This document shows, piece by piece, positions 35,947 to 61,774 of a stretch of DNA of 64,000 nt. This stretch comes from a virus (lineage: Duplodnaviria; Caudoviricetes). Made by a program: the position numbers and the translations under genes. The notes under the pieces were generated by a model. The model made no database searches and had not been told where the DNA came from. It saw only the letters and a list, made by a program, of their open reading frames with translations. The stretch's first letter is position 1. Every line of letters begins with the position of its first letter. The DNA lies in IMG/VR virus record IMGVR_UViG_3300046490_000096, positions 1 to 64,000 of that record; one strand, given 5' to 3'.

Positions 35947-35961
35947 CATGGAGACAAGCAC

Positions 35962-39020: not shown

Positions 39021-39412
39021 TGAATCCCTCCGAATTCAGCGGCCACTCTCGGCCAGTTTGGTTCCTCGTTCTTGTCGTCCACAAATGCGTCCGCTTCCGG
39101 TTTCCCCGGATGCTGCCAGACCTCGTCGAACATCTCCCACAGCCCGAGCGCCCGCAGAAAATACCGCATCTCGGCGAAGCGCTCCCACTGGTCTGTAATG
39201 CGCGGTGACACTTCCCCGGTCTGATACCAACGCGCCGCTTCCTCTTCCAGTTGCGGCGCTGGGTCTAAAGGCGTGCACCTGCAGGAGTGAAGCACGAGGT
39301 GATGCCCGGCCCTTTTGAGCGCTGCAAGGGCCTCAGCAGCGCCAAGGCGAAGCGCAAGGGGCCTACCGTGGGCCAGTGACCCATCGAAATCGAAGGCCAG
39401 TCGTAGGCTCAA
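39017..39412 (-). CDS. HAD-superfamily hydrolase
   Basis: LAFDFDGSL (DxD), VLHSCR, KPEADAFVDDK. Confidence 0.8.
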   Translation of the reverse strand: MSLRLAFDFDGSLAHGRPLALRLGAAEALAALKRAGHHLVLHSCRCTPLDPAPQLEEEAARWYQTGEVSPRITDQWERFAEMRYFLRALGLWEMFDEVWQHPGKPEADAFVDDKNEEPNWPRVAAEFGGIQ

Positions 39413-48449: not shown

Positions 48450-48476
48450 GGTCTTGCTCCGTTCTTGGGTTGGCTG

Positions 48477-48764
48477 CTAGAGGCTGGTGGTGGTGAAGTT
48501 GGTGTTGAGGCGCTTGGTGGTGTCCATGTGCATGAGCACCGCCGCTGCAATGTCGTACTCGGTCACCCGATGCGCCTTGGTCATGGCCAAGACAATGGCT
48601 TCCCGCTTGCCCTGGACCGCATAGCGCTCTTCCTGCGTCGCGATCTCGGTGTCGTACTCGTGGGTCAGATTGAGCGCTTCTTCTAGAAGCTTGCCGACGG
48701 TGGCCAGCTTGCGGTTGATTGCGCGCTCCATCTTGGCCATCTCGGTCTGTGTTTTCGTTGACAT
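48477..48764 (-). CDS. Helical hypothetical protein (leaderless start)
   Basis: MSTKTQTEM start lies 6 nt after the -10 box of class 1 promoter B. Confidence 0.6.
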   Translation of the reverse strand: MSTKTQTEMAKMERAINRKLATVGKLLEEALNLTHEYDTEIATQEERYAVQGKREAIVLAMTKAHRVTEYDIAAAVLMHMDTTKRLNTNFTTTSL

Positions 48765-48768
48765 ACCC

Positions 48769-48841
48769 TCAAGATACAGCCGGACCGATTCCCGGTCAAT
48801 GGTATTTTTCAAGTACCGTGAAATAAAATGCAGCGAGTCAA
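48769..48841 (-). promoter_or_regulatory. Repeated promoter element class 1, copy B
   Basis: TTGACC-17-TATCTT; GACCG-N5-CGGTC inverted repeat in the spacer; direct repeat of 45571-45644. Confidence 0.8.
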
Positions 48842-48863
48842 GCGGCCGCGCAATTCCCTAGGA

Positions 48864-49637
48864 TTATCGGCTAGTTACGTCGCCAGCTGTGCCAGCGCCG
48901 CGCCCGAGAATCGCCGCCCCCCACCTGCTTATTGCTTCGCGACAGAAGAATTGACTCATTACGGTGTCTGTCCCCTTCCCCATCGGGTAGTCCCGCATTT
49001 CCTCGTCCCATACGCACCACGAACAGCGGCACTGAGGCGGATGCCCCTCGTACTCGTCTCGCGGGATGACCCACGCCTGGTTCTTGAACTCGACCTCGAG
49101 GGAAGGGAGCCCGTAGGTCGGGTCGACCTTCGATGCGAACCCGGTCGTGTAGCTTTCGATCTTGTACCAGATGGAGCTCGAACTCGGGTCGCTCTGAATC
49201 CAGTCCACGAGGCTCTGCTGGTAGCCGTTGTTCTCGACCATGATGATCGACAGCGTGGGGTGCCGCTCGTTTACCCCGGCGATGTGGGCCGCGGTCTCGG
49301 GCGACTTCCAGCCTCCCCGGAGTATCTCGAGCGGATACCGGCGAAGGGTGGCCGGGTCGATTGCCGCCACGAAGATGACGTTGCCCGGCCTGGCCTTGCC
49401 CGCCAGGTCGACTCCGGCGAACACGGGCCATCCCCTGCGCGCGACCTCGCCCAGGACGACGCCGTGGGAGTAGCACGTGGTGAAGCTCGGGAACATCCGC
49501 TCCTCGTCCGAGAAAGCGCGCATCTGGAAGCCGCGGGAGAAGGCGCGAGGGTTGTCGGCCTGCTCCTGGCGTAGGCGCTCGGTGTTCCAGTGGGCCTGCC
49601 AGACGGGGACGGAGCGGATGCGGCGCTCGCTGTTCAC
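48864..49637 (-). CDS. Terminase large subunit, stand-alone nuclease (RNase H-like) half
   Basis: VW..HWNTERL..NPRAFSRGFQ linker; FAGVDLA; IMVENNGYQ; YPMGKGTDTVMS; own GTG start coupled to the upstream gene. Confidence 0.85.
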   Translation of the reverse strand: MNSERRIRSVPVWQAHWNTERLRQEQADNPRAFSRGFQMRAFSDEERMFPSFTTCYSHGVVLGEVARRGWPVFAGVDLAGKARPGNVIFVAAIDPATLRRYPLEILRGGWKSPETAAHIAGVNERHPTLSIIMVENNGYQQSLVDWIQSDPSSSSIWYKIESYTTGFASKVDPTYGLPSLEVEFKNQAWVIPRDEYEGHPPQCRCSWCVWDEEMRDYPMGKGTDTVMSQFFCREAISRWGAAILGRGAGTAGDVTSR

Positions 49638-49837
49638 GTCGCAGACCCCTCGTCGTCGACTTCCACCAGGAGGACGACTTCAAGCTCTCCGAGGTAGCGC
49701 GGTATCCACTCCATCTTGAGCCGGTGGGCCTCGGGCATCGCGGCCTCCTCGCTTGGGAACAGCATCTTGCTCTGGATGAAGGGTTCGGTGTCCCCAATCT
49801 TGCGCACGGCTGGCCTGTAGAGCGCGCGAGCCATCAC
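49634..49837 (-). CDS. Small hypothetical protein
   Basis: 67 aa; GTGA-coupled to the terminase nuclease gene. Confidence 0.5.
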   Translation of the reverse strand: MMARALYRPAVRKIGDTEPFIQSKMLFPSEEAAMPEAHRLKMEWIPRYLGELEVVLLVEVDDEGSAT

Positions 49838-50058
49838 GCCCGGCCCCGATCGCGCACCGATGCCACCACGTCCATCAACTCGACCAGCCTAGCCCTTCTC
49901 TCGCGGTCCTCTTTGGCAGACGCGTAGAAGTAGCGGACCACGCACCACTGCTTCCTGTCACAGTCCGCTGCTGGGTAGACCGTGCGCACCTGCTCGTTCA
50001 GGAAGTGCGTCCGCTTCAAGTGCTGGCGGCGGGCTCCGAAGCGGTAGTAGGAGATCAT
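49834..50058 (-). CDS. Small hypothetical protein
   Basis: 74 aa, overlapping neighbours. Confidence 0.45.
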   Translation of the reverse strand: MISYYRFGARRQHLKRTHFLNEQVRTVYPAADCDRKQWCVVRYFYASAKEDRERRARLVELMDVVASVRDRGRA

Positions 50059-50240
50059 GCCGGACTCGCTCCCTCGCCTGCCTTCACGGTCACGCGTCCG
50101 CAGCGGTAGCAGAATAGGTCATGCGTCTTTAGGTCATCCAACGTGAGATTGCGATCCATCGGCGTCAGATCGCCTAGTTCATCATCGCCGCACACCGGGC
50201 AAATCGGCCAGCCGTCTTCGCGCCAGGATTCTGGCTTCAC
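50055..50240 (-). CDS. Small Zn-ribbon protein
   Basis: CPVC..CYRC. Confidence 0.55.
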   Translation of the reverse strand: MKPESWREDGWPICPVCGDDELGDLTPMDRNLTLDDLKTHDLFCYRCGRVTVKAGEGASPA

Positions 50241-50476
50241 GCCCGGCCTCGATTCACATGCCCGTGCATGATCCCCATGTCGGTCATCGTCTCGGCGGAC
50301 ACCTCACCTTGAACCCGCGGGGAGTCCTCCGGGTCGTCGAAGATTTCCGCCTCGTCCTCGGCCTTGCCGTCGAGGTAGCCTTCGACGAAGTCCTGCATGT
50401 CGGCGATGGCTTCCTTGCGCTCCTCGGGCAGGAGCTTCTCAAACTCCCGGTAGAACGCCTTGGTCAGGGGGTGCAT
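50237..50476 (-). CDS. Small acidic hypothetical protein
   Basis: MHPLTKAFY start, TGATG-coupled. Confidence 0.55.
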   Translation of the reverse strand: MHPLTKAFYREFEKLLPEERKEAIADMQDFVEGYLDGKAEDEAEIFDDPEDSPRVQGEVSAETMTDMGIMHGHVNRGRA

Positions 50477-51837
50477 CACCCCGCCGCCTCCACCTCTACT
50501 GGATCTTCTTCCCTCACCCACACAGCTAGCCTCGCCCGCACCACATTCCAGTCCAGGTTCCTGAACGCCGCCGCCATGCCCACGTCCTTCCGCGCGCCGT
50601 AGTCCATCATGTACGCGTCCGGGCTTGCGTCGATGGCCAGCAGGACCGGGCAGCCAGCCGGCACGCCTTCGTAGCCTCCGCCCACCAGCGCGTTTCGCAC
50701 GGCGTTTCGGCGCGGGTCCCAGACCGTGAGCGCCCAGCCTTGCTCGACGCTTCCCAGAATTGCCCGCAGGTCCAGCAGGTAGCTTGTCATCGAGCCCCAG
50801 GTCTTCGTCACCTCGCGGAGCAGAACGCCCGTGGGCATCTTCGCGAAGTCCGGCACCTCGCCGATGTAGTCCTTGTTCCGCGTGAGGGCCTCGAAGTACA
50901 GCTCATGCAACCGGACCGCGTTGTAGGCGGCCGGCTCCTGGCGTAGCAGCTCCGAATGCTCGGACCAGCCTTCGAAGCTCTTGAACGGCCTCGCCCCTTG
51001 CCCCGTGCCAAGAGCTTCTCCCACGGTGCCCTTGAGCTTGCGATACGAGACGGGCCGGCCTGGGTAGAGGTTCGTCGGCGCCGCGTTCAGGATACCAGCC
51101 TTGGCCAGGCCTTCCATGTAGCGGAGCTTGTCCAGCGCCTTGGGCCAGTCCGCGTATTCCTGCTCCCACTGTGATGTCGGGTCCAGCCAGCAGGCGAACG
51201 TCTCGGCCCAGTCCTCGTCCGGATGCTTCTGGCCGTAGTGGTCGCTCACGTCCGTGAGGTACTCCACGAAATCCTCGCTCCGCGCGTCCGAAGGGAACTC
51301 GTCGCGATACGGAATCCGGAAGTCACCGAAGAGCGCTTCCCAGTCCGGTCGGCGCCACAGCTCGTGCGTGTAGTTGACCGCGTGGCCTATCTCGTGGCGT
51401 AGGCACTTGAGCACCTCGTCTTGCGAGTAAGCCGTCCCTTCCTGCCTGTTCGCCAGTCGCCAAAGCGTAGGGTTGGCCAGGTACCACGGGATGTTGATGC
51501 TCAGCCCGCGGTCAGTCGTCCACCAGTCGTCATCGCCCAGGTAAAAGTTGGGCGACACGTTCACGCCGGCCGCGACCAGCTCCTTCTTCACCTGGTAGAT
51601 GGCCGCCGCCAGCGCACCCTGAATCTTGAGCTCCAGGGAAGCCACAGGAGCCGCCAGTATCGCCGCGACCTTGGGCGGAGGAGACTCGCCCCAGTCCGTG
51701 AGCGGGTAGGCCGCCTCGATCGCGTTCAGGCGCTTCACCGCCTCCGCGTATCCGCCCAGGTGCGCGGCCAGCATGCGGTCGCTGATCCCGACCAAGTGGC
51801 CGCGAAGGTAGGAGAAGTCTCGGGCGATGATGGGCAT
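50476..51837 (-). CDS. Degenerate Fe/Mn-SOD-fold protein with inserted HExxH zinc metallopeptidase (Peptidase_Mx-like) domain
   Basis: SOD helix 1 (DFSYL..GISDRMLAAH); insert with HEIGH and YGQKHPDEDWAETFACWL; SOD remainder NAVRLHELYF..WGS..GWA..IDASPDAYMMDYG..FRNLDWNVV. Start at 51837. Confidence 0.8.
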   Translation of the reverse strand: MPIIARDFSYLRGHLVGISDRMLAAHLGGYAEAVKRLNAIEAAYPLTDWGESPPPKVAAILAAPVASLELKIQGALAAAIYQVKKELVAAGVNVSPNFYLGDDDWWTTDRGLSINIPWYLANPTLWRLANRQEGTAYSQDEVLKCLRHEIGHAVNYTHELWRRPDWEALFGDFRIPYRDEFPSDARSEDFVEYLTDVSDHYGQKHPDEDWAETFACWLDPTSQWEQEYADWPKALDKLRYMEGLAKAGILNAAPTNLYPGRPVSYRKLKGTVGEALGTGQGARPFKSFEGWSEHSELLRQEPAAYNAVRLHELYFEALTRNKDYIGEVPDFAKMPTGVLLREVTKTWGSMTSYLLDLRAILGSVEQGWALTVWDPRRNAVRNALVGGGYEGVPAGCPVLLAIDASPDAYMMDYGARKDVGMAAAFRNLDWNVVRARLAVWVREEDPVEVEAAG

Positions 51838-51842
51838 GGGTT

Positions 51843-52232
51843 CTATCCTACCACCGGCACGACCGTGACCCATACGCCGGGCTTGGTCCCCTGCATGTGA
51901 TTGTGAGTGCTTCCCAGGTAGTAATCCGGGCTGTCGTCCAGAATGAGCTTGGCCGTCTTGAGCCCATCGTTGACAAACTTCGTTCCAGCTTCGCGATTGT
52001 CCCGATCCATCTCGGACTTGTTGCCGTTGATGGGAGCCACCCACAGGAGTTCCAGCCGGTATGCTCCGGCCACCTTGGTGACCTGCGCAGCCTTTGCCAT
52101 CCAAGCGACGTTCTCGGTCCACAGCTTCTTCAGACGAGCGTACTTGAATCCACGCCCGCCGCATCCCTTGCACGCTTCGATGACCTCGTTTAGGCCGGGC
52201 ATCTGGCCGTTGACCCAAAAGCGCGTTGCCAC
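51843..52232 (-). CDS. rusA: RusA-like Holliday junction resolvase
   Basis: PGLNE..KK..DRDNREAGTKFVNDGL..ILDDS; GTG start at 52232. Confidence 0.75.
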   Translation of the reverse strand: MATRFWVNGQMPGLNEVIEACKGCGGRGFKYARLKKLWTENVAWMAKAAQVTKVAGAYRLELLWVAPINGNKSEMDRDNREAGTKFVNDGLKTAKLILDDSPDYYLGSTHNHMQGTKPGVWVTVVPVVG

Positions 52233-52233
52233 C

Positions 52234-52419
52234 CTATCCTCCCATGAAGGATCGTCCCGTGGCCGTCTCGCACGCCTCCGACCAGCCGCCGCGCTCCGGA
52301 CGTGCATTGCCGCACGCCTCGCAAAACACGCCGTCGTCGTCTTCCCGCTCGACGTGTCCACGAGTAGTTCCATCCGGGTTGGGGACGAAACGCACGTCCG
52401 GGAACGGCTCCGGACTCAT
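52234..52419 (-). CDS. Small Zn-binding hypothetical protein
   Basis: MSPEPFPD..CEAC; ATGA-type overlap. Confidence 0.45.
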   Translation of the reverse strand: MSPEPFPDVRFVPNPDGTTRGHVEREDDDGVFCEACGNARPERGGWSEACETATGRSFMGG

Positions 52420-52670
52420 TGACAGGTGCTCGCCGCGGTCAGTGCCTTCACGTCCCAGGGCACCGTTTGGGCCGCGTTGGTGCAGACCTCGGCGCAGGTG
52501 TGGCCCATGGGTGTTGGCTTCGCCCAGGTGCATCCCAGCTTCGTTCCTTGCGCGCACGCAGAGGTGCATGTCGCGGCCGGCGCGGGACAGGGCTTGGTGG
52601 CCTCGGTCGGGCAAGGCGTGGTAGCGCAGGCCGAAAACAACGCGATCACCATGATGAATATGATTTTCAT
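52416..52670 (-). CDS. Cys-rich lipoprotein
   Basis: Lipobox FSAC and eight further Cys. Confidence 0.75.
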   Translation of the reverse strand: MKIIFIMVIALFSACATTPCPTEATKPCPAPAATCTSACAQGTKLGCTWAKPTPMGHTCAEVCTNAAQTVPWDVKALTAASTCQ

Positions 52671-53488
52671 TGTCGAACTCCAGCGGGGACGAGCAGGTTG
52701 ATCCAGAGGTCAGAAGCCCCGTAGTTAGGGCTGGTCAAATAGTCATATCCGAACCTGCAGCAACCATCTGGAAGTCCAGGCTCATGCCCGCCTTCCTTGC
52801 CCCAGGAGCCCTTGATGAGGACCCACTCCTCGGCATGGTTGAACCCGGCAATCGTGAGACAGTGGCCTCCCGCGATGGTGTCGCGCGATGTCGGCGCGTG
52901 AATGATTCCGGTCGGGGTTGAGCTGCAGAACTCTTCAGTGACGAGACAGCCGAAGGGGATGCCGTGCTTTGCGGTTGAGGCCGTTTCGATGTCACCAATC
53001 AGTGTCGCACCTTGCGAGCTGATGGGATGATAGTTGATTCCAATGGTCCCCCGCGAATCAAAGGCCGCCCTGTCCACGTCAGGACCTGGAAGCTGTTTGA
53101 ACTTCGAGATGTCGTACGGGTACACGCTCTCATTCGGCACACCCTTGGCAGCCAAGATGGTGTAGGCGTCCCCGATGTTTCCGCCTGCGTCCTGGTTTAC
53201 TTTGCCCTCCAGATACCGGATACCGAAATAGAGCCAAAGGCGCGCCAGCACGAATGCGGGAACGCCAGCCTTCTTCATGGCCATGTACATGGCCTGCGCC
53301 GGTCCGTTGCTCTGGCAGCTTCCCAGCTGGCCCTGGTCGAGGTCGCAGGTAAGCGAGGAGTTGTCGGCCGACTTTGCCTTCGCAAGCCCAGCCAGCACAC
53401 TATCGCCGGCCTCTGGGTGCGCCTTCAGCAGCGTCCTGATTCGTTGCTCTGGAGTTGGGGCTACCCAACCGAGTGCTCTTGTGTTCAT
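52667..53488 (-). CDS. Papain-family (C1A) cysteine peptidase
   Basis: DQGQLGSC, LWLY..R, GGHC, IKGSWG; start MNTRALG at 53488. Confidence 0.85.
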   Translation of the reverse strand: MNTRALGWVAPTPEQRIRTLLKAHPEAGDSVLAGLAKAKSADNSSLTCDLDQGQLGSCQSNGPAQAMYMAMKKAGVPAFVLARLWLYFGIRYLEGKVNQDAGGNIGDAYTILAAKGVPNESVYPYDISKFKQLPGPDVDRAAFDSRGTIGINYHPISSQGATLIGDIETASTAKHGIPFGCLVTEEFCSSTPTGIIHAPTSRDTIAGGHCLTIAGFNHAEEWVLIKGSWGKEGGHEPGLPDGCCRFGYDYLTSPNYGASDLWINLLVPAGVRQ

Positions 53489-53808
53489 TGATTTTCCTTT
53501 CGTTTGCATGCTGGCCAGTACGGTTCGCCACAGCTCCCCGCGGCCACTTTTGCTTGAGCTTCCCCGCGGCACGGCTCCTCGATGCCACAAGCGTTCCACG
53601 CGCAAGCCGACCACACCATTCCCTGGTCGTCCACGCAGGAGGCTGGGACAGCGTAGTGGGGCGTGCAGCGCGGCTTCGCGTGAGCCTGCTCGAGGCGGGC
53701 CGCGAGTTCGGTTCCTGGCGTCGGATCGTGCGGCGCTGTCGCGCAGCTAGCGAGCGTCCCGATGATGAGGCCAGCCAGCCAGAGCCAGAGCAGGTGGATT
53801 GGCTTCAC
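53485..53808 (-). CDS. Cys-rich lipoprotein
   Basis: GTG start; LWLWLAGLIIGTLASC lipobox; seven further Cys. Confidence 0.7.
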   Translation of the reverse strand: MKPIHLLWLWLAGLIIGTLASCATAPHDPTPGTELAARLEQAHAKPRCTPHYAVPASCVDDQGMVWSACAWNACGIEEPCRGEAQAKVAAGSCGEPYWPACKRKENQ

Positions 53809-54314
53809 TTCCCCATCCTCGCCGCCTGCATCCGTTCCCCCTCCTCGCGCCCCAACATCGCCGCCTTGTGGACGTACGCCGGGCTGCCACCGAACGACGT
53901 CCCGAGCCCGAAGAGTAGCCGCCACTGGACTTGCGCCGGGCCGCTGGGCTGCTCGATGATCTCCGGCCCCGCGCCGATCTGGATGTAGTTGGCGATGGAC
54001 AAGATGAGCGACGGCGCGAGCTGATTCGGCTGCCCCTGTCCCACGAGGAACGAAGCATAGAGAGCAGCGCCGAGGGCAACCGGACCAGAGTAGGTCACAC
54101 CGTAACCAACACCGGGGACGATGCCGCCCGAGAACTTCGAGGTGTTCAGGTTGAATTCCCCGACTGTGATTGCGACCGCTGGGCCGACGCATGTCTTCTG
54201 GTCGACGCCGAAGCACGTCCCAAATTGCGGGGTCTGCGCGTGCGCCTGCGTAGCCCCTGGAATTGCGTAGGTGGCCACAAAGGCGAGCAAGAATGCAAAG
54301 AGAAGTCGTTTCAT
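53805..54314 (-). CDS. Exported protein, possible small outer-membrane beta-barrel
   Basis: Signal peptide (AHA-Q); amphipathic strands GVGYGVTY, LGAALYASF, IQIGAG, WRLLFGLG. Confidence 0.55.
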   Translation of the reverse strand: MKRLLFAFLLAFVATYAIPGATQAHAQTPQFGTCFGVDQKTCVGPAVAITVGEFNLNTSKFSGGIVPGVGYGVTYSGPVALGAALYASFLVGQGQPNQLAPSLILSIANYIQIGAGPEIIEQPSGPAQVQWRLLFGLGTSFGGSPAYVHKAAMLGREEGERMQAARMGK

Positions 54315-54715
54315 GTGGTGGGTCCTTTCTTGAACGGAACGGTGATGGGTGTCTTGTCATCCTGCAACGGCACGGCCTGTTGCTTGGCCGGAGTGTTGAC
54401 CGAATCTGGGTCAGCAGAGCGCGGGGCTTGCACCATGGGCACCACGTTGTCCTTGGCCGGGTTCCACGGCGCAACCGCACCGGGGGGCGTGGCGAGTCCC
54501 GCCTTGGCCATAGTCTGCCTGAGCCACGGCAAGGCCAGCGCCAGACCTCCGCAGGCCAGCACCAAGATCCCGAGGATATGCACGATGCCCGTCACGTGGG
54601 GAATTCCGCTGGCGGTAAGCCAGTTCGCAGCGGCTTGGATGTCCGGTCCTGATACCGCCAGAATGCCCAGAAAAATCAGGACGGTGTTTCGATTCAGAGC
54701 TACGGGTAGCTTCAT
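54311..54715 (-). CDS. Membrane protein, holin-like
   Basis: Two to three hydrophobic segments followed by a Pro-rich soluble tail. Confidence 0.55.
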   Translation of the reverse strand: MKLPVALNRNTVLIFLGILAVSGPDIQAAANWLTASGIPHVTGIVHILGILVLACGGLALALPWLRQTMAKAGLATPPGAVAPWNPAKDNVVPMVQAPRSADPDSVNTPAKQQAVPLQDDKTPITVPFKKGPTT

Positions 54716-55110
54716 GGTGTCACGTTCCCTTCTCGGTCGATGGTATCACGGCGGCGGACCTCCAAATTCCACAAAGCCTGCCAGCGCGCGACCTGCCCGG
54801 TCTGCCACTCGCGAAGCCGCTCCTTCTTCCACCCCTTGAACACTCCCGCGTTGGCGTGGAAGTCCATGTGGCACTTGTGGGCCATTGGCACACCCTGATC
54901 GTGCCCAGACTTCTTGCCCATGGCTCGGTTCTGTGTGTTGTGGTGCACCTCGACGGGACCGCACCCTCCCACGCGTGGGCAGCAACAGCGCTGCTTGTGC
55001 AGCCACTCAAGACGGAGCTTGTCTTCCGGCGCGATTGGCTTGGCCTTGCGCACCCGTCGCATCGGCTTACGCCGGATTGGAGTCTTGCGTTTGAGTGGTG
55101 TTCGCTTCAT
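54712..55110 (-). CDS. Basic HNH-like nuclease (Ref/DUF968-like)
   Basis: MKRTPLKRKTP start; WLHKQRCCC..VEVHH..VPMAHKCHMDFH. Confidence 0.65.
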   Translation of the reverse strand: MKRTPLKRKTPIRRKPMRRVRKAKPIAPEDKLRLEWLHKQRCCCPRVGGCGPVEVHHNTQNRAMGKKSGHDQGVPMAHKCHMDFHANAGVFKGWKKERLREWQTGQVARWQALWNLEVRRRDTIDREGNVTP

Positions 55111-55123
55111 GTGATCCCCATTG

Positions 55124-55423
55124 TTAGCCCTCGCCCCAGCCCGCGCCACCGCCCTCGCCAGCGCCCCAGCCCGCGCCCTCGCCCTCGCCAGCGCCCTCGC
55201 CCGCGCCCTCGCCCTCGCCCGCGCCCTCGCCCGCGCCCGCGCCACCGCCCTCGCCAGCGCCCCAGCCCGCGCCAGCGCCCTCGCCAGCGCCCCAGCCCGC
55301 GCCCGCGCCACCGCCCCAGCCCGCGCCCTCGCCAGCGCCCCAGCCCGCGCCCGCGCCACCGCCCCAGCCCGCGCCCGCGCCACCGCCCTCGCCAGCGCCC
55401 GCGCCCGCGCCCCAGCCCGTCAC
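55124..55423 (-). CDS. Glycine-rich repeat protein (GAG/GWG/GEG)
   Basis: GTGA-coupled to the DUF6948-like gene; 99 aa of Gx repeats. Confidence 0.6.
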   Translation of the reverse strand: MTGWGAGAGAGEGGGAGAGWGGGAGAGWGAGEGAGWGGGAGAGWGAGEGAGAGWGAGEGGGAGAGEGAGEGEGAGEGAGEGEGAGWGAGEGGGAGWGEG

Positions 55424-55743
55424 TGCGTCACGAAACGAGCGAACGATTCCACAGCCTCCGCCGAGCACTCATGGATCGCCGCCACGTCCAGTAGGAGAGT
55501 CGACGCGATGGTGGCGCCGATCCTGGACTCCGCCATCCTCGGGCCACAGAGTCCGAAGGCTGCCAAACTCGTCACGCCGCCGGTCTTCCCGTGCCAATAG
55601 CGAATGTTCCGCGCCTCGTACAGACGCACGCTCTTGTTCTTGACCACCTCCGCATCGGTAGACTTGATGTGACCAAACCACAGCCCATAGCTCCCGTTAC
55701 CTACGATGACCCACCTCTTCGCGATCTTCTTTGCCTTACTCAT
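55420..55743 (-). CDS. DUF6948-like protein
   Basis: WVIV..YGLWFG..VRLYEARNIRYW..TSLAAFG..IHECSAEA. Confidence 0.7.
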   Translation of the reverse strand: MSKAKKIAKRWVIVGNGSYGLWFGHIKSTDAEVVKNKSVRLYEARNIRYWHGKTGGVTSLAAFGLCGPRMAESRIGATIASTLLLDVAAIHECSAEAVESFARFVTQ

Positions 55744-55775
55744 GTTGTCCCTCTCAGTTGGATTTCGTTCCTTCT

Positions 55776-55815
55776 CCCCTGTATATGCGTCTCGCTCGAA
55801 ACGGCTTCGATCAAA
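55776..55815 (-). promoter_or_regulatory. Repeated promoter motif class 2, copy 2
   Basis: 40-bp stretch nearly identical to 60114-60153; overlaps the ssb stop. Confidence 0.7.
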
Positions 55816-56245
55816 ATGGAACGTTTTCGTCCCCTGCTGGCGGCGCCTGCGACGACGTGTCGAAGTCGTTCCGAGGCACCTGGCTGCCGGTGTCGCGGTC
55901 TTTGCCGTTGCCGTTGGGCTTCCCCAGGAATACGACGCGTTCTGCGACCACGTCTGTCACGTAGCGCTTGATGCCTTCCTTGTCCTCGTAGTTCCGGGTC
56001 TGCAATCGGCCCTCGACGTAGACCTGCTGCCCCTTCGTGAGATACTTGCCGCAGTTCTCGGCCGACTGGCCCCACACAGTTACGCGGATCCACTCCGTGC
56101 GCTCCTGCTTGGCTCCAGCCTTGTCCTTCCACTGTTCGTTGCAGGCCAGGCTAAGGTTGCACACGGGCTGATTGCTTGCTGTGAACTTCAGCTCGGGGTC
56201 GGCTCCCAAATTCCCAATGCCGAGCCATTTATTGACGCTGCCCAT
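55811..56245 (-). CDS. ssb: Single-stranded DNA-binding protein
   Basis: VNKWLGIGNLGADPEL..RTEWIRVTVWG..KGQQVYVEGRLQTR..acidic tail ENVPF. Confidence 0.97.
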   Translation of the reverse strand: MGSVNKWLGIGNLGADPELKFTASNQPVCNLSLACNEQWKDKAGAKQERTEWIRVTVWGQSAENCGKYLTKGQQVYVEGRLQTRNYEDKEGIKRYVTDVVAERVVFLGKPNGNGKDRDTGSQVPRNDFDTSSQAPPAGDENVPF

Positions 56246-56246
56246 C

Positions 56247-56603
56247 CTACGCCAGTGCCTCGGCCATCGCCTTGACCGTGGCCAAGAACAGATGATCCTT
56301 CTGCTGCTGTGCAGGCGGTAGCTCGGCGTATGACACAAAGCGCGGGTGCTCCTTCTTCTCCGGATCCTTGACCGGGCCGTACTTCCATCCCGTTGCGTAC
56401 TTTTCGGCAAGCCACGACTCGTGCGACTGCTCTGGCGTGTTCCCAGCGAGCGCACCAGCAACGCCATTGATGGCTGACGAGCGCTGCCAGTCGGGAGCGT
56501 CCTTCCATGCTGGCTGCGACAGGTCGCCGTGGGCTTCGCAGTAGATGCGGTTCATTTCGTGGGCAGCTTCTGCACATTTTTCGATTTTCTGTTGTGTATC
56601 CAT
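56247..56603 (-). CDS. RyR-domain protein
   Basis: AEAAHEMNR..PEQSHESWLAEK..GWKYGPVKD..KKEHP..Y.ELP..QQ.KD. Confidence 0.85.
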   Translation of the reverse strand: MDTQQKIEKCAEAAHEMNRIYCEAHGDLSQPAWKDAPDWQRSSAINGVAGALAGNTPEQSHESWLAEKYATGWKYGPVKDPEKKEHPRFVSYAELPPAQQQKDHLFLATVKAMAEALA

Positions 56604-56866
56604 CAGACCCTCTCCTTCTTTCGTTCCGGTTCCTTGGGCGACCTGCTCACCATGAAGGCATCCTTCTGGACGATCTTCAGGGCCGCCCTCTTGATCTTCA
56701 ATCGAGCTGGGAACTGCGCGCAGCACTCCGGGCAAAGACAGGGGAGAGCTCGGCGGGATTCCCGGCTGCTGCTCACGATGTCGGCCTCGCTGGTTGTGGC
56801 GCCCATAGGTACAGCTTCCCGCGCACAACCCGATCCTTCGTCCAGCCGGCTTTCTTGTAGCAGCAC
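56603..56866 (-). CDS. Small hypothetical protein
   Basis: 87 aa with CLCPECC; TGATG coupling. Confidence 0.4.
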   Translation of the reverse strand: MLLQESRLDEGSGCAREAVPMGATTSEADIVSSSRESRRALPCLCPECCAQFPARLKIKRAALKIVQKDAFMVSRSPKEPERKKERV

Positions 56867-57303
56867 CCTGGATTGGTCGAACGCACGTTCTTAATTCCGA
56901 TCTCGGTGCGCAGTCTCTCGACGGGAAGTTCACCGTAGCGTTTGAGCCACTCCGCATAGGTCATTTCGAGGGCCGCGCGCACTAGATCCGACGATCGCTC
57001 CTCGCCGAGGTTTCGGAAGACCATGTTGCGCCAGATGTACCGCGGCGCCGAGTCGGTTGCTCCTGTGCGCCCTCGGCTTGCCCCGGTCCCGCGTGCACTC
57101 GGTGTCCGCTGCCGAACCACCGCCCACACGGCGTCGCCGTCGTCGGTAACGAGTACAATCTCTTGGCCTACGCCGGTGAACGTCTTACTCCCTGGCGTGC
57201 GGCGAGAATAGTGCGGCCCCTTTCCTGCGTGCTTGCCGGTGCCATCGACAACGTCCAGGGCGCGCCGGTCACTGGACGATGACAATGTCCAGCGAGCGAT
57301 CAC
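56773..57303 (-). CDS. Mom-like GNAT-fold DNA-modification protein
   Basis: HYSRRTPG..F.GVG..IVL; W.N.VFRN..RSSDLV; STNPGCCYKKAGW. Confidence 0.7.
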   Translation of the reverse strand: MIARWTLSSSSDRRALDVVDGTGKHAGKGPHYSRRTPGSKTFTGVGQEIVLVTDDGDAVWAVVRQRTPSARGTGASRGRTGATDSAPRYIWRNMVFRNLGEERSSDLVRAALEMTYAEWLKRYGELPVERLRTEIGIKNVRSTNPGCCYKKAGWTKDRVVRGKLYLWAPQPARPTS

Positions 57304-57599
57304 GACGGCCGATTCTCCGTCGCCTGAAACGCCTTCGAGAATGCCGACACGACCGCCGCCACCTTGGCCATGGCTTCGTCGCCTGCGTTGTAGAGCTTCA
57401 TCCGCTCCACGAACAGCACCACGGCTGCGGTCTTGGATACGCTCGGAGCCTCGGCCTCGAATAGCTCGACTAGCTTTCCCAGGAAGGTCAGCGTCTCGAT
57501 CACGACCGGGGCGATTTCGCGATCTGGGATGAGGCGAGTCGCCCGGATGTGATCGGCGGCTTCGAGGGCGAGGACTTCTTCGGCGGTCTTGTCGTTCAC
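57300..57599 (-). CDS. Hypothetical protein
   Basis: 99 aa, helical, coupled overlaps. Confidence 0.55.
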   Translation of the reverse strand: MNDKTAEEVLALEAADHIRATRLIPDREIAPVVIETLTFLGKLVELFEAEAPSVSKTAAVVLFVERMKLYNAGDEAMAKVAAVVSAFSKAFQATENRPS

Positions 57600-57603
57600 G
57601 TTT

Positions 57604-57933
57604 TCACCTTGTGTTGATCCAGTAGCTCGTCAGCGCCCGCTCGCCCAATTCCCGGCACTCGGGGCACGTCGCAAAGTCGTATTCCTGCGTCCACTTTTCC
57701 CGGATGCTCGCCCCGCAGATAGGATAGCCACCCACTCCAAAGTGCATGATCGCCGGCTCTGGGAAGAGCAATGAAGGCAGTGCGGAACGCTTCTGTAAAG
57801 GCTCCGGAAGAGACCCGACTCGCCACCATGCCCGCCACCAAATCCGCCTCCATCCCCCGATAGCTTCGAAGCGACTCCGGGCCCACGCCAGTCTCCCGAC
57901 CTGCACTAGCCAGATGTTCGGCGCTTCCTGCAT
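57604..57933 (-). CDS. Hypothetical protein (reading frame ambiguous with 57596-57943)
   Basis: C-terminal PICG..CPEC looks real, but the alternative frame has the better overlap. Confidence 0.3.
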   Translation of the reverse strand: MQEAPNIWLVQVGRLAWARSRFEAIGGWRRIWWRAWWRVGSLPEPLQKRSALPSLLFPEPAIMHFGVGGYPICGASIREKWTQEYDFATCPECRELGERALTSYWINTR

Positions 57934-58184
57934 CGCTTGTCACGACGTGAGCCTACTGCCACCTTGGCCGCGGTAGCAAGGAATCCCGCCTCGACGGATC
58001 GGTGGTACTGCTCCAGCTTCCACTGATGCATGAACCCTAGAACAGTTCCCCTCCTCTTGTAGCGCCAGAGCTTCGGGTCCTCGTGGTTGTCCTTGAGCAT
58101 CTCGAAGGCTTGCTGATAGCTCAGCCCGCACCGGAACGAGTCGTAGCCGGGAAGGCCGCGCTTCGCGCCCCACTTCGAGGCCAT
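57906..58184 (-). CDS. Hypothetical protein
   Basis: 92 aa, protein-like composition, adjacent to the upstream stop. Confidence 0.5.
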   Translation of the reverse strand: MASKWGAKRGLPGYDSFRCGLSYQQAFEMLKDNHEDPKLWRYKRRGTVLGFMHQWKLEQYHRSVEAGFLATAAKVAVGSRRDKRCRKRRTSG

Positions 58185-58457
58185 TCACCGGATTTCCCTC
58201 GCGTCCGGCAACGCGCCCATGTGCCGTTTCCTAGCCGCGTCTTCCTTCTGCACCCGCGTCTGCCAGGCCCTGTATTCCAAAGCGTTCATCCTTCGCCTGG
58301 TCGGGTACTGCGACGGCTCCGGCTCCAATCCCGTGCGCAGACCGGCCGCCTTCTTCGCCCTACATCCTGCGCAGCGCTCGGTGTAGGTCGGAGTCTCCCC
58401 TGCCTCCTTGCCCTTGCGGCACTGGGAACAGGTGTAGGGCTTCGCGGATTTGCTCAC
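58185..58457 (-). CDS. Zn-finger hypothetical protein
   Basis: CSQC..CAGC; GTG start. Confidence 0.5.
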   Translation of the reverse strand: MSKSAKPYTCSQCRKGKEAGETPTYTERCAGCRAKKAAGLRTGLEPEPSQYPTRRRMNALEYRAWQTRVQKEDAARKRHMGALPDAREIR

Positions 58458-58750
58458 CACACACCTGCCTTGTGCGCTTCGTAGGCATCCTTGTAGAGCA
58501 TGATTGCCTTTCCGACCCTTCTCAGCACAGTCGGATGCAGCGGCCTCCCGCGCTTTCCCTTGGGCGTTATCACGAGTCCGCCGTCCTTGTTCACGGACAG
58601 TGCAACCTGGCTCGCCCCGTTGACCTTGCACACCTCGCGTATCCCCTGCTCCGTGAAGGTCAGTCCCGTGGCGTGACAAATCTTCTCGATGTCCCGCAAG
58701 AACTGCCTCTGCGTGTGGACCGTCGAAGTCTTGTAGGTGCGGTCGCGCAT
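58454..58750 (-). CDS. Hypothetical protein
   Basis: MRDRTYK start, or an in-frame GTG at 58828. Confidence 0.5.
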   Translation of the reverse strand: MRDRTYKTSTVHTQRQFLRDIEKICHATGLTFTEQGIREVCKVNGASQVALSVNKDGGLVITPKGKRGRPLHPTVLRRVGKAIMLYKDAYEAHKAGVW

Positions 58751-58824
58751 GGTGATTCGCTCCTGCCGGCGGCGGCGTTCGGTCGTCGGGTTGGCGTGGC
58801 CGAGTCGGCAGCGGGTGCGCTTAC

Positions 58825-59196
58825 TCACGACCTCGCCACCCTTCCCAAGTCTTCCATCATGCCCTTCACCGGAAAGCCCTTCGGATTGCCACTGATGACC
58901 GTGAACCCCGTCCCCACTGAATGCACGACGGACCGGCGAGGAGACGTTGCCTTGTAGCCGGAAGGGGTCCGCTCGAAACTGCACACCTTCTCGGCGCCTT
59001 CGATGTCGAAGCCGAGAGCGCAGACTTCAGAGAGAGCAGCGGAGGCCCACTGGGTGAACCAACTCGTAATGTCTCCCATCTGCCCAACGCGGTCGACGAT
59101 GTCCGCCTCGTCCCCAACTAGATCCATCTTCGATGTGCCGTTCTCCCAATTCACCTCCGCGCGAAGAAGAGCGTCCGCCCTTTGCGCCCGAGTCAC
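58825..59196 (-). CDS. Hypothetical protein
   Basis: 123 aa, coupled overlaps. Confidence 0.55.
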   Translation of the reverse strand: MTRAQRADALLRAEVNWENGTSKMDLVGDEADIVDRVGQMGDITSWFTQWASAALSEVCALGFDIEGAEKVCSFERTPSGYKATSPRRSVVHSVGTGFTVISGNPKGFPVKGMMEDLGRVARS

Positions 59197-59924
59197 TGCC
59201 CACCTCCCAGCACGTCCGCGTGCTTCTGCCGGTGCAGAGCAATCCGGTCCCGCAGGCGTTCGATGCGGTGGCGAGTCCCGGCGCTGGCGGCGAGGATGCG
59301 GGCGGAATCACCCTGCACCTTTGCGACCTCGTCAGCCGCCGACGCGCTCGCCTTCAGTGCCGCCTCGCGGACACCTACCGCCTGCATGACCTCGGCGCAC
59401 TTCACGTCGGCCAGTGCCTTCAGTTCGTCGATTTGCCCAAGCAACTCGCTGTAGTCCATGCGCGCGGCATCCTCTGCGCGCCTCGCAACGTCCGCCTCAG
59501 TCGACGCCACCGCCGACTTCACTTGCGCATCCGCAATCCCCGCATCGTGGCCCTTGATTCGCTCCGCCAGCTCGGCCTCGGCCTTGTCCAGCTCGATCTG
59601 CAGCCGGTCCAGCTTCGCCTGCACCAGCTTGCGCTCGGCCTCCGGGTCTTTCACCACCCGGCCAATCAACTCCACCGGAGCGTCGCCTTTAAGCTTTCTG
59701 TTCATCGCCCGCACCGCGCAGCCACAGATGCGGCTCTCGGTCTTGCCCTCGCGCTGGTAGTCCTGGAATCCCTTCCCATTGCACCATCGGCACTGCGGGT
59801 TGGCCATCGAGAGAACCTCCGACAGGGGCGCTTGGCCCAAGTCGAGTTTCACCATCGGGTCGGCGGAGCGCGGCGGCTGACCCGGAGGTACGAGCGGAGC
59901 TTCTTGGGACTGTTCGGTGTTCAT
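59193..59924 (-). CDS. Zn-finger plus long coiled-coil protein
   Basis: CRWCNGKG..ICGC followed by an Ala/Glu-rich coiled coil. Confidence 0.65.
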   Translation of the reverse strand: MNTEQSQEAPLVPPGQPPRSADPMVKLDLGQAPLSEVLSMANPQCRWCNGKGFQDYQREGKTESRICGCAVRAMNRKLKGDAPVELIGRVVKDPEAERKLVQAKLDRLQIELDKAEAELAERIKGHDAGIADAQVKSAVASTEADVARRAEDAARMDYSELLGQIDELKALADVKCAEVMQAVGVREAALKASASAADEVAKVQGDSARILAASAGTRHRIERLRDRIALHRQKHADVLGGGQ

Positions 59925-60097
59925 CGTGTTTCCTTCACCGCTGCCATGCATTCAGCGGGTCCGCCGCCCTTGCTCAGACAATCCGCAAAGGCTTCGTTGC
60001 TTTGCCTCTGACCCATGATTCTCATAACCGTCAGAGCCACGACAATGGCAACAAGTGCCAGCGCCACAATCCAAAGTTGCTTCGAGTCTTCGTTCAT
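59921..60097 (-). CDS. Small single-pass membrane protein (58 aa)
   Basis: Manual translation MNEDSKQLWIVALALVAIVVALTVM..CLSKGGGPAEC; first gene after a class 2 promoter. Confidence 0.6.
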   Translation of the reverse strand: MNEDSKQLWIVALALVAIVVALTVMRIMGQRQSNEAFADCLSKGGGPAECMAAVKETR

Positions 60098-60113
60098 TGC
60101 CTCTTTCCCCTCT

Positions 60114-60153
60114 CCCCTGTATATGCGTCTAGGCCGAAACGGCTTCGATCAAA
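60114..60153 (-). promoter_or_regulatory. Repeated promoter motif class 2, copy 3
   Basis: Overlaps the last codons of the terminase ATPase gene. Confidence 0.7.
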
Positions 60154-60929
60154 TCTGGGTAATCGTCTCCACCCCCGACCACGGTCTGTTCCACCTCCGT
60201 GCAGTCGTCGGAAATGCTCTGCCGCAAAGTGCACCACCGGGGCCGCTGCATGAGATGGTGAAGGGCGTCGTCTTGGTGCCACGTTGTGCCAATAGCAAGC
60301 ATGTTCCCGTCCGGCTCCAAGCGGGAAAACCACGTCTCTTCCAGCAGCGAGAGCACCCTGCGCCGCTGGATTGGGTCCATGCTGTTCTTTTGGTCCACCA
60401 CGTCATCTAGCAACTCGATATCTGCGCGTCCACCAATGCCCGTCGTGAAGATTCCGCGGGCCTGCACCGTTGGGTCGACCGCATGCCCCACGCGCTTCAC
60501 GTAGAGTTCGTGCCCCGTCCACGCTCCGCCGCTCACCACGCCTGGGAACACCTGCCGATAGACCACGGACTCGAGAATGCGCTTCACAGCCCCCACCCGC
60601 TTGCTCGCCGAGTCGTCGTCGTTGGTGATGATCTTGATGCGCAGGTTCGGGTCTTGACCGATCATGTAGGCGCATAGAGGTACAAGTAGGGAACTTGACT
60701 TCCCATGGCCGAAGGGCGCCAGCGTCATACATCTTAACTCACGAGTCCAACAGTAGTTCAGGTGCCGAATCCAGGACATGTGAATCGGGGCCAGCTTGAT
60801 GCCGACGCCGTGATCGTCCTTCACGGCGAGCGCGATGAAGTTGGCCAAACTCGTGCGGGCCCGCGCCACCTTCGCGTTCCACAGGGCAGCGAGAGCGCGC
60901 GCGGGCGATGGCTTATGCTGTGGGGGCAT
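60129..60929 (-). CDS. Terminase large subunit, stand-alone ATPase half
   Basis: Walker A APFGHGKS, GIGGRAD, Walker B IELLDDVVD, coupling motif IGTTWHQDD; stops before any nuclease domain. Confidence 0.9.
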   Translation of the reverse strand: MPPQHKPSPARALAALWNAKVARARTSLANFIALAVKDDHGVGIKLAPIHMSWIRHLNYCWTRELRCMTLAPFGHGKSSSLLVPLCAYMIGQDPNLRIKIITNDDDSASKRVGAVKRILESVVYRQVFPGVVSGGAWTGHELYVKRVGHAVDPTVQARGIFTTGIGGRADIELLDDVVDQKNSMDPIQRRRVLSLLEETWFSRLEPDGNMLAIGTTWHQDDALHHLMQRPRWCTLRQSISDDCTEVEQTVVGGGDDYPDLIEAVSA

Positions 60930-61332
60930 CGTCCTTCCGTCCAAACTTCGCCAGCAGCCACTTCGCGACGAAGTCCAAGGGACTCGATACGATGGGAAAC
61001 GCCGGGTCCCCGGTCATGCCCATCGGCTCGAAACGCATGCCCATAAGCTTCCTGACGCTTGGTTCGAACGGGACGCCGTACTGCCAAGCCATACTCAAAC
61101 TCATCGCTACCGCGTCGAGGGCGCCCCTGGCCATGGAGCCTTCCTGATCAGCCTTGATAAACACCTCGCCGGGCCGTCCGTCTTCGTACAGCCCAACGTG
61201 GACGTACATTTTGAGCGGTCCGCGCTTGATTTCCTTTCCGCAGTGCTCGCACTTCTTCGGCTGGCGTGGGATGCGGAACGCCTTGCAGACGCTCTTGCGC
61301 TCGTCCGGCAGGCGCATTCGCTCTGGCGTCAC
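60913..61332 (-). CDS. Stand-alone TSCPD-domain protein (class II ribonucleotide reductase C-terminal-like)
   Basis: RLPDERKS..MYVHVGLYEDGRPGEVFIK..SMAWQYGVP..FEPMG..SSPLDFV. Confidence 0.85.
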   Translation of the reverse strand: MTPERMRLPDERKSVCKAFRIPRQPKKCEHCGKEIKRGPLKMYVHVGLYEDGRPGEVFIKADQEGSMARGALDAVAMSLSMAWQYGVPFEPSVRKLMGMRFEPMGMTGDPAFPIVSSPLDFVAKWLLAKFGRKDDAPTA

Positions 61333-61772: not shown

Positions 61773-61774
61773 GG

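What the first reader, a model, noticed from the sequence alone, without database searches (positions are those of the whole stretch)
48864..60929. Terminase large subunit split into separate ATPase and nuclease genes about 10.5 kb apart
Seen: 60129-60929 encodes only the TerL ATPase (PFGHGKS, LLDDVVD, IGTTWHQDD) and stops at the inter-domain linker. 48864-49637 begins with the matching linker (VW..HWNTERL..RAF) and encodes the RNase H-like nuclease (GVDLA, VENNGYQ, YP.G..D). About two dozen unrelated middle genes lie between them. Each half has its own start: the nuclease GTG overlaps the upstream stop, and a promoter motif is embedded in the ATPase stop region. I see no intein motifs and no direct repeat at the junctions. 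Both halves are also far from the portal. Known: TerL is normally one polypeptide; ATPase/nuclease splits I am aware of (some actinophages) are adjacent genes. Inference: a two-component packaging motor that could permit separate stoichiometry or timing of cutting and translocation, or evasion of terminase-sensing defences such as Avs/STAND ATPases. No small terminase subunit was recognised.
Basis: partly seen in the sequence, partly recalled or inferred. Interest (0 to 1): 0.85.

Follow-up and report, generated by a model that had tools for sequence, protein, structure and literature searches.

The report
Two-gene phage terminase, halves far apart
This uncultured 81-kb phage, like all its close relatives examined, encodes its DNA-packaging enzyme (large terminase) as two separate conserved genes that here lie 10.5 kb apart, so the motor is probably built from two protein chains rather than one.

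Summary
Gene 60129-60929(-) is a complete TerL ATPase. Gene 48864-49637(-) is the TerL linker plus RNase H-like nuclease. Together they tile one T7-type TerL chain: PhiV-1 TerL residues 2-250 and 247-537, and fused relatives with about 3 residues between the halves. They are the only TerL-like sequences in the circularly closing 81-kb genome. There is no intein, intron, junction repeat or misassembly, and independent assemblies show the same layout. Catalytic residues are invariant, and dN/dS is 0.07 for the ATPase gene (A) and 0.01-0.04 for the nuclease gene (N).

All 14 members of the phage's own starred clade are split. The genes are adjacent with a 4-nt overlap, 1.7-5.5 kb apart, 7-18 kb apart, or in the order N - terS-like gene - A. 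A and N divergences co-vary (Mantel r 0.82-0.91). A conserved 268-aa HTH/coiled-coil gene, a candidate small terminase just outside the window, always travels with A, while N stays with the portal module. Small gaps in relatives hold mobile or accessory cargo.

Best reading: a functional two-chain terminase, and the junction has become a cargo and rearrangement site. The adaptive ideas (timing, Avs evasion) are untested.

This scan has reported two-gene terminases before on other DNA. What is new here is the very wide, variable separation and the terS-A versus N-portal modularity.

The parts
60129..60929 (-). terL-A: stand-alone large-terminase ATPase gene (266 aa from the ATG at 60929; the open frame reaches a TTG at 60944)
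   Evidence: phrog_38 positions 266-470, E 4e-32. AF2 pLDDT 93.7, and 8dgc_E residues 2-250 at Z 22.5. K82, D180, D181, D184 and T220 are invariant in 43 homologues. dN/dS is 0.067 against L036.
48864..49637 (-). terL-N: stand-alone gene for the TerL lid/linker helices (residues ~10-43) plus the RNase H-like nuclease (residues ~44-240)
   Evidence: phrog_38 positions 485-627, E 1e-8. AF2 pLDDT 89.2. G20c nuclease at Z 15.9; T4 gp17 residues 318-562 and 8dgc_E residues 247-537. D77, E135 and D224 are invariant in 49 homologues. dN/dS is 0.014-0.036.
49638..60128 (-). 10.5-kb intervening block of about 20 co-oriented genes, unrelated to packaging
   Evidence: ORF maps. SSB at 55811-56467, Sod_Fe_C + Peptidase_Mx fusion at 50476-52218, papain-like protein at 52667-53614; the rest have no family. 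The content is mosaic between close relatives.
49634..49837 (-). 67-aa ORF whose stop overlaps the terL-N start (GTGA), implying translational coupling
   Evidence: Sequence read. No PHROG family.
60114..60146 (-). 33-nt repeated promoter-like motif overlapping the terL-A stop codon
   Evidence: Copies on the - strand start at 68917, 64536, 60146 and 55808, and one on the + strand at 35914. It is not found in relatives. Function is inferred.
55776..55808 (-). second exact copy of the 33-nt motif, downstream of the SSB gene and inside the intervening block
60913..61332 (-). TSCPD-domain gene immediately upstream of terL-A and overlapping its start
   Evidence: Pfam PF12637, E 3e-10. The same neighbour sits upstream of terL-A in L036.
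39409..41118 (-). portal gene, the start of the conserved head/tail module that stays downstream of terL-N in relatives
   Evidence: phrog_64, E 7e-13. Synteny with G003, G006 and G011.

Best explanation
The large terminase of this phage is made as two polypeptides from two independently translated genes.

What is shown:
- terL-A supplies the RecA-like ATPase core. terL-N supplies the last helices of the ATPase small (lid) subdomain, the linker and the RNase H-like nuclease.
- Both genes are intact, unique in the genome, under purifying selection and co-diverging.
- The split is fixed in the whole clade.

What is inferred:
- The N-terminal helical segment of N (the conserved 'PLW...W..L...F.RGF.Q' region) probably docks onto A. 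That would rebuild the lid subdomain and tether the nuclease to the motor without a covalent link.
- The likely history starts from a fused gene. A stop/restart at the linker then gave adjacent genes with overlapping stop and start codons.
- The new intergenic junction then accepted mobile and accessory genes and rearrangements. In this lineage a terS-candidate + terL-A cassette now sits among replication/middle genes, while terL-N stays in front of the portal/head module.
For: Identity of the halves:
- The two ORFs match consecutive parts of phrog_38.
- They tile PhiV-1 TerL at residues 2-250 and 247-537.
- They tile fused relatives, for example P0098, where A covers 10-243 and N covers 247-484.
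- T4 gp17 aligns to A up to residue ~315 and to N from residue 318, so the cut precedes the hinge.

Functionality:
- Walker A, Walker B and motif III residues are invariant, as is the D-E-D nuclease triad.
- dN/dS is 0.067 for A and 0.014-0.036 for N.
- Each domain has a single copy in the genome.

Conservation of the split:
- 88 clusters of ATPase-only proteins go down to 37% identity, and every longer relative at 57% identity or more is ATPase plus intein, not ATPase plus nuclease.
- A starred 14-member clade in the A tree has 0 fused members: 9 far apart, 2 adjacent, 2 with gaps and 1 reversed.
- Adjacent forms are in different frames with 4- to 38-nt overlaps.

Independent assemblies: L036 has the halves 7.4 kb apart, G005 15 kb, G006 13.6 kb, G004 18 kb and G012 14 kb.

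Co-divergence: Mantel r is 0.82 over 39 pairs and 0.91 within the clade, with 0 of 2000 and 0 of 5000 permutations as high.

The terS candidate lies 0-3.6 kb upstream of A in 8 records wherever N is, with an Atlas lead to small-terminase clusters.

Small gaps in relatives hold a TnpB-like gene plus Phd, an HNH/NUMOD3 gene plus a methylase, and an Acb2/Tad1-like gene.
Against: - There is no direct evidence that the two proteins bind each other or package DNA.
- Co-divergence is also expected from shared descent alone.
- The terS assignment has no Pfam, PHROG or PDB support.
- The repeated motif is absent from relatives, so common regulation of A and N is unproven.
- In G011-type genomes the linker segment of N lies in another frame with a TAG. 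If the linker is the tether, that variant needs a separate explanation.
- All relatives are metagenomic. No cultured phage with this split was found.
Confidence: 0.8

Rival explanations
1. The halves are rejoined before or after translation, by excision of the 10.5-kb block, RNA splicing, ribosomal bypass or frameshift, or protein trans-splicing by a split intein. The working enzyme would then still be one chain.
For: Interrupted terL genes that are restored are well known. Group I introns and inteins do this in Jug phages (PMC12880540). Ten-nucleotide UUA inserts in Hau3 terL are a candidate for bypassing (PMC10732093). Relatives of this very gene carry a true intein in the P-loop. Adjacent forms overlap in different frames, so a frameshift fusion is conceivable there.
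Against: - No intron or other Rfam family lies at the junctions.
- No repeats flank the block.
- There is no Hint/intein match, and there is no room for one: A ends about 8 residues after its last conserved motif, and N starts about 8 residues before its first.
- The block holds about 20 genes with their own starts.
- In G011 the order is N, then terS, then A, which no splicing or frameshift can restore.
- Each half has its own start codon, and N has an RBS-like GAGGGG.
Confidence: 0.04
2. The arrangement is an assembly misjoin, or a chimera of two phages.
For: It is a single metagenomic contig that IMG/VR classes as linear, with 86% CheckV completeness.
Against: - The ends overlap by 332 bp, so the contig closes into a circle.
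- An ENA contig from another sample has A (94%) and N (99%) in the same order, with the SSB and SOD/peptidase genes between them.
- G001 is collinear through the block into N.
- G005 and G006 share the layout.
- GC content and strand bias are uniform.
Confidence: 0.02
3. The two genes no longer work together. A alone would be the packaging ATPase, like phi29 gp16. N would have been recruited as an independent nuclease, for example a resolvase/debranching or end-processing enzyme, perhaps with another nuclease doing the terminal cut.
For: - The genes are physically and possibly transcriptionally uncoupled.
- RuvC-type resolvases share the fold (Z about 9).
- G011-type N genes have a disrupted linker segment.
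- phi29-like motors work without an active nuclease (own knowledge).
Against: - N keeps the conserved lid/linker segment that has no role in a free nuclease.
- TerL nucleases match far better than resolvases do, Z 15-16 against about 9.
- A and N co-diverge tightly.
- Both complete relatives (G006, G011) keep exactly one of each.
- Split and fused forms interleave on the tree, implying interchangeable function.
Confidence: 0.1
4. The split is a recent, slightly deleterious accident, a gene broken by an insertion, in a decaying or defective element.
Against: The split is shared across relatives down to 37-41% identity. dN/dS is far below 1. The genomes have full structural modules. Two relatives are 96-100% complete and have the same feature.
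Confidence: 0.02

Closest known systems
One-chain T7-type large terminase (T7 gp19; PhiV-1 TerL, PDB 8dgc chain E)
   Same: It is the best structural and sequence match for both halves, which together cover the chain end to end. The ATPase motifs and the D-E-D nuclease centre are the same.
   Different: Here there are two genes and two chains, cut about 40 residues before the ATPase/nuclease hinge. The genes lie 10.5 kb apart and are not next to the portal.
terL genes interrupted by group I introns or inteins (Jug phages, PMC12880540; inteins in actinophage TerL)
   Same: The coding sequence is discontinuous. Relatives of this terL-A do carry a P-loop intein with a LAGLIDADG endonuclease.
   Different: In those cases splicing restores one chain. 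Here there is no intron or intein at the A|N junction, the gap holds about 20 genes, and one relative has the halves in permuted order.
Streptomyces phage Hau3 terL broken by 10-nt UUA inserts (PMC10732093)
   Same: terL is annotated as several ORFs in a cultured phage.
   Different: That case is proposed to be read through by translational bypassing into one protein. The breaks are 10 nt long and not at this position.
Genes-in-pieces made by free-standing homing endonucleases (Aeromonas phage Aeh1 nrdA split by mobE; own knowledge, not checked in a paper here)
   Same: An essential phage enzyme is cut into two separately translated chains that still assemble. Mobile genes sit in the gap in some relatives here: HNH/NUMOD3 in L068 and TnpB in L060.
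   Different: No homing endonuclease was recognised in this phage's own gap. The gap has grown to 7-18 kb and the pieces have moved relative to each other.
phi29-type packaging ATPase gp16 (own knowledge)
   Same: It is a packaging ATPase that is not covalently joined to an active nuclease.
   Different: phi29 needs no cutting, because it has protein-primed unit-length genomes. This phage keeps an intact, conserved TerL nuclease as a separate gene.
Two-gene terminases reported earlier by this scan on other DNA (e1-3297453, e1-3540540, e1-3286506, e1-4443250, e1-5799030)
   Same: Separate conserved ATPase and nuclease genes, variable cargo in the gap, a cut inside the ATPase domain, and in some cases the permuted N-terS-A order.
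   Different: Those gaps are 2.4-3.4 kb. Here the halves are 7-18 kb apart, in different genome modules, and the position changes among close relatives. None of those notes was re-checked here.

Membership tests
Large terminase TerL (T7 gp19 / PhiV-1 type; phrog_38) | N-terminal ASCE P-loop ATPase fold with Walker A Lys, Walker B acidic residues and motif III | tested here: met
   phrog_38 E 4e-32. 8dgc_E Z 22.5, T4 gp17 Z 18.4, P74-26 Z 16.7. K82, D180/D181/D184 and T220 invariant.
Large terminase TerL (T7 gp19 / PhiV-1 type; phrog_38) | C-terminal RNase H-like nuclease with an acidic metal-binding triad | tested here: met
   G20c, RB49, D6E, SPP1 and P22 TerL nucleases at Z 14-16. D77, E135 and D224 invariant.
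Large terminase TerL (T7 gp19 / PhiV-1 type; phrog_38) | Both domains on one polypeptide | tested here: not met
   Two ORFs 10.5 kb apart, each with its own start and stop. No fused copy in the genome.
Large terminase TerL (T7 gp19 / PhiV-1 type; phrog_38) | ATP-driven DNA translocation and genome cutting | not testable with these tools
   Needs biochemistry or genetics.
Intein- or intron-interrupted terL | Hint/intein domain, or a split-intein pair, at the break | tested here: not met
   No Pfam hit in either half. The termini leave only about 8 non-conserved residues on each side.
Intein- or intron-interrupted terL | Self-splicing intron at the break | tested here: not met
   An Rfam E-value scan of 47500-62500 finds no intron family. 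The gap holds about 20 genes, and one relative has the permuted order.
Genes-in-pieces by mobile-gene insertion | Both pieces kept as separately translated, conserved ORFs | tested here: met
Genes-in-pieces by mobile-gene insertion | Homing endonuclease or transposon gene in the gap | tested here: inconclusive
   None was recognised among the ten largest or flanking ORFs of this gap. It is present in relatives: HNH/NUMOD3 in L068 and TnpB-like in L060.
Small terminase TerS (for the 268-aa gene at genome 64535-65341, P0261) | Encoded just upstream of the TerL ATPase gene | tested here: met
   Homologues lie 0-3.6 kb upstream of terL-A in G000, G002, G004, G005, G006, G011, L034 and L036.
Small terminase TerS (for the 268-aa gene at genome 64535-65341, P0261) | Similarity to a known TerS family or fold | tested here: inconclusive
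   No PHROG, Pfam or PDB-sequence match. The Atlas nearest clusters include 'terminase small subunit' (0.94) and Terminase_5 (0.93), which are leads only. The alignment shows an HTH-like block, a coiled coil and a conserved C-terminal block.

The most novel reading that the evidence does not exclude
The separation is adaptive rather than neutral. Placing terS and terL-A with the replication/middle genes and terL-N with the head genes would give the phage separate control of motor assembly and DNA cutting. Alternatively, the two-chain form escapes Avs-type sensors that recognise an intact TerL. Notably, the best structural match of both halves is the TerL bound by Avs3 in 8dgc. The A|N junction would then serve as a dedicated cargo slot for anti-defence and mobile genes.
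Probability: 0.15. Interest if true: 0.85.

Novelty: new variant of a known kind. Interest (0 to 1): 0.62.

Why it matters
Models of the tailed-phage packaging motor disagree on whether the nuclease domain takes part in translocation through its covalent hinge to the ATPase (the T4 inchworm model) or is a passenger. A whole clade of about 80-kb phages appears to package DNA with the two parts on separate chains, cut inside the ATPase domain just before the hinge. That is a natural experiment on this question and gives ready-made constructs for biochemistry.

It also matters for annotation. Neither half hits any Pfam terminase model. TerL-based phylogeny, completeness checks and 'terminase next to portal' heuristics will therefore miss or mis-score these phages.

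Finally, it shows how an essential gene, once split, can become a hotspot for cargo insertion and module shuffling.

Tried and rejected
- Nucleotide search of the region against cultured phages: no match.
- tblastn of the nuclease half against cultured phages: no match.
- The ATPase half finds only intact TerLs at 33% identity or less. Two were checked: ICBM1 and RosePharie.
- Pfam on both halves: nothing.
- PDB by sequence: weak for A, nothing for N.
- Junction repeats, att-like sites and inverted repeats: none at both junctions.
- Rfam: no intron.
- Terminator and sigma-70 promoter scans: at or below chance, so uninformative.
- The 33-nt motif is not conserved in relatives (one search used a mis-spaced pattern and is void).
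- TerS searches by PHROG, Pfam and PDB profile on the ORFs next to A and N and on P0261: nothing.
- TerS-like ORFs of distant relatives have no homologue in this genome.
- Genome contigs gave only distant MAG hits at 38% identity or less, mostly fused, so no host was identified.
- Literature searches found no description of a natural two-chain TerL. The P2 names 'ATPase subunit' and 'endonuclease subunit' refer to TerL and TerS and are a naming coincidence.


Full report
GENOME AND SETTING
The window is the first 64 kb of an 81,160-bp IMG/VR viral contig. The contig's ends overlap by 332 bp at 330/332 identity, so it closes into a circle of about 80.8 kb. GC content is about 62%, and almost all genes are on the minus strand. 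It has a myovirus-like structural module:
- portal at 39409-41118
- scaffold protein at 33129-33899
- major head protein at 31668-33050
- baseplate wedge protein at 14301-15443

The genes beyond 64 kb encode a helicase, an Erf-like annealing protein, a methyltransferase and a ParB-like protein.

THE OBSERVATION
The likely start of the first ORF is the ATG at 60929.

Pfam finds nothing in either. PHROG phrog_38 (terminase large subunit) matches them at consecutive profile positions, 266-470 (E 4e-32) and 485-627 (E 1e-8). These are the only two phrog_38 matches in the genome.

Pfam Terminase_6N, TerL_ATPase, Terminase_3 and Terminase_6C find nothing in six frames. My own HMMs of the two halves each find exactly one place.

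STRUCTURE
AF2 models were built on family alignments.
- The ATPase half (pLDDT 93.7) matches PhiV-1 TerL 8dgc_E residues 2-250 (Z 22.5), T4 gp17 residues 100-315 (Z 18.4), HK97 TerL and the P74-26 ATPase.
- The nuclease half (pLDDT 89.2) matches TerL nucleases of G20c, RB49, D6E, SPP1, P22 and herpesviruses at Z 14-16. RuvC-type resolvases score only about 9.

With full-length chains, the nuclease half aligns from its residue 6-10 to 8dgc_E residues 247-537 and to T4 gp17 residues 318-562. In T4 the ATPase domain runs to about residue 360 (own knowledge; the ATPase crystal construct 2o0j has 360 residues). So the cut lies about 40 residues before the hinge, and N carries the last helices of the ATPase small subdomain.

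Fused relatives confirm that nothing is missing. In P0098 (496 aa) the A half covers residues 10-243 and the N half residues 247-484.

FUNCTIONALITY
In 43 ATPase-only homologues, K82, D180, D181, D184, T220 and three arginines are invariant. In 49 nuclease-only homologues, D77, E135, D224 and K170 are invariant, and the N-terminal linker motif is conserved.

dN/dS was measured against close relatives that also have the separated layout:
- 0.067 for A against L036
- 0.036 for N against L036
- 0.014 for N against G001

NOT REJOINED AND NOT AN ARTEFACT
- No repeat flanks the block.
- No intron family is found in 47.5-62.5 kb.
- There is no intein signal and no room for one.
- N has its own GTG, which overlaps the upstream stop and follows a GAGGGG.
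- An ENA contig from another sample (L036) has A at 94% and N at 99% identity, 7.4 kb apart, with the SSB and SOD/peptidase genes between them.
- G001 is collinear with this genome from 59.9 kb through N to 38.5 kb. The place where A sits here holds a different gene there.

RELATIVES
Positions of A and N in IMG/VR and other contigs:
- G002, G003, G014 and L035: adjacent, with 4- to 38-nt overlaps in different frames
- G013 and L052: 1.7 kb and 5.5 kb apart
- L036, G006, G012, G005 and G004: 7.4, 13.6, 14, 15 and 18 kb apart
- L048, L072 and L077: no N within 10 kb
- G011: the order is N, a 265-aa gene, then A

Of 44 viral loci found with the A profile, 20 are fused and 24 are split: 8 adjacent, 8 with 0.5-5.5-kb gaps, 7 far apart and 1 reversed.

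On the A tree, a starred clade of 14 holds this phage and all far-separated forms and contains no fused member. The two adjacent forms are sister to this phage and nested among far-separated ones.

The ATPase-only family has at least 88 clusters. Every longer relative at 57% identity or more is an ATPase plus a P-loop intein.

An exhaustive search with N gave 817 hits. Of the best 150 clusters, 78 are fused, 58 are nuclease-only and 14 are fragments. The two states are interleaved on a tree, with 25 changes by parsimony and at least 9 forced by well-supported branches.

A and N distances co-vary: Mantel r is 0.82 over 39 pairs and 0.91 within the clade.

MODULES
Synteny shows that N stays in front of a conserved portal/head/tail module in G000, G003, G006 and G011.

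The 265-aa gene between N and A in G011 has homologues 0-3.6 kb upstream of A in eight records. In this genome the homologue is at 64535-65341, just outside the window (P0261).

It has an HTH-like block, a coiled coil and a conserved C-terminal block. It matches no Pfam, PHROG or PDB family, but its nearest Atlas clusters include small-terminase clusters. I read it as the probable small terminase, with confidence about 0.6.

So a terS-A cassette moves relative to an N-portal module.

Short gaps in relatives hold a TnpB-like gene with Phd, an HNH/NUMOD3 gene with a methylase, and an Acb2/Tad1-like gene. This suggests that the junction, once intergenic, became a cargo site.

REGULATION
A 33-nt motif overlaps the A stop codon. 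It recurs at 55.8, 64.5 and 68.9 kb on the same strand, and once on the + strand in front of an Nmad5 gene. The 64.5-kb copy sits at the end of the terS candidate.

If these are promoters, terS, A and N all lie in units of one class. The motif is absent from relatives, so this remains an inference.

COMPARISON WITH WHAT IS KNOWN
The held literature describes two kinds of interrupted terL:
- terL interrupted by introns or inteins (PMC12880540)
- terL interrupted by 10-nt inserts that may be bypassed (PMC10732093)

Searches found no natural two-chain TerL.

This scan, however, has already reported two-gene terminases on other DNA, with 2.4-3.4-kb gaps and in some cases a permuted order. What is new here is the scale and variability of the separation and the terS-A versus N-portal modularity.

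VERDICT
This is a new variant of a known kind. The adaptive explanations remain speculative.

Noticed in passing
window 52342-52404 (+): Sub-threshold Rfam hit to the type I hammerhead ribozyme (31 bits against a gathering score of 34, E 2.6e-4, full model length). It lies on the strand opposite to the genes, inside the block between the terminase halves.
   Followed up: no
L003 8549-10567 (G004); L077 8615-10579; proteins P0091-P0097: Relatives of terL-A carry an insertion of about 410 aa at the Walker A/P-loop position within one open frame. It has Intein_splicing and LAGLIDADG_3 Pfam domains, so it is a true intein in an already split terminase.
   Followed up: partly
L015 10007-12535 (G011); also G008, G009, G010: The order is permuted: nuclease gene, terS-like 265-aa gene, then ATPase gene. 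The nuclease ORF starts at about residue 60 of the family. Residues 5-38 of the linker are encoded in another frame with a TAG, and this is seen in four contigs. The cause could be a frameshift, recoding or loss of the tether; it is unresolved.
   Followed up: partly
genome 64535-65341 (-), 535 bases beyond the window end (L047:535-1341:-): A 268-aa HTH/coiled-coil protein (P0261) that is always encoded just upstream of terL-A in relatives. It is a probable small terminase of an unclassified family.
   Followed up: partly
L060 1094-2765; L068 1223-2622; L017 1656-2360: Cargo between the terminase halves in relatives: a TnpB-like gene (Cas12f1-like TNB, OrfB_IS605) with a Phd antitoxin; an HNH/NUMOD3 endonuclease with an N6/N4 methylase; and an Acb2/Tad1-hairpin anti-defence-like protein.
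   Followed up: partly
window 35914-35946 (+), 55776-55808 (-), 60114-60146 (-); genome 64504-64536 (-), 68885-68917 (-): Five copies of a 33-nt motif (GAAGCCGTTTCG-N4-AG-N2-GCATATACAGGGG). The + strand copy sits at the start of an Nmad5 (nucleotide-modification) gene at 35866-36504. The motif is not found in relatives.
   Followed up: partly
window 50476-52218 (-): A 580-aa protein combining Peptidase_Mx (residues 271-346) and Sod_Fe_C (residues 462-563). It is conserved between the terminase halves in G005, G006, G011 and L036.
   Followed up: no
window 55079-55485: A long array of 12/18-nt GC-rich periodic repeats inside ORF 54712-55383, so the protein is low-complexity (Ala/Gly-rich on the coding strand).
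   Followed up: no
genome 1-332 and 80829-81160: The contig ends overlap by 332 bp with 2 mismatches. IMG/VR therefore calls it linear and 86% complete, though it most likely closes into a complete circle.
   Followed up: yes
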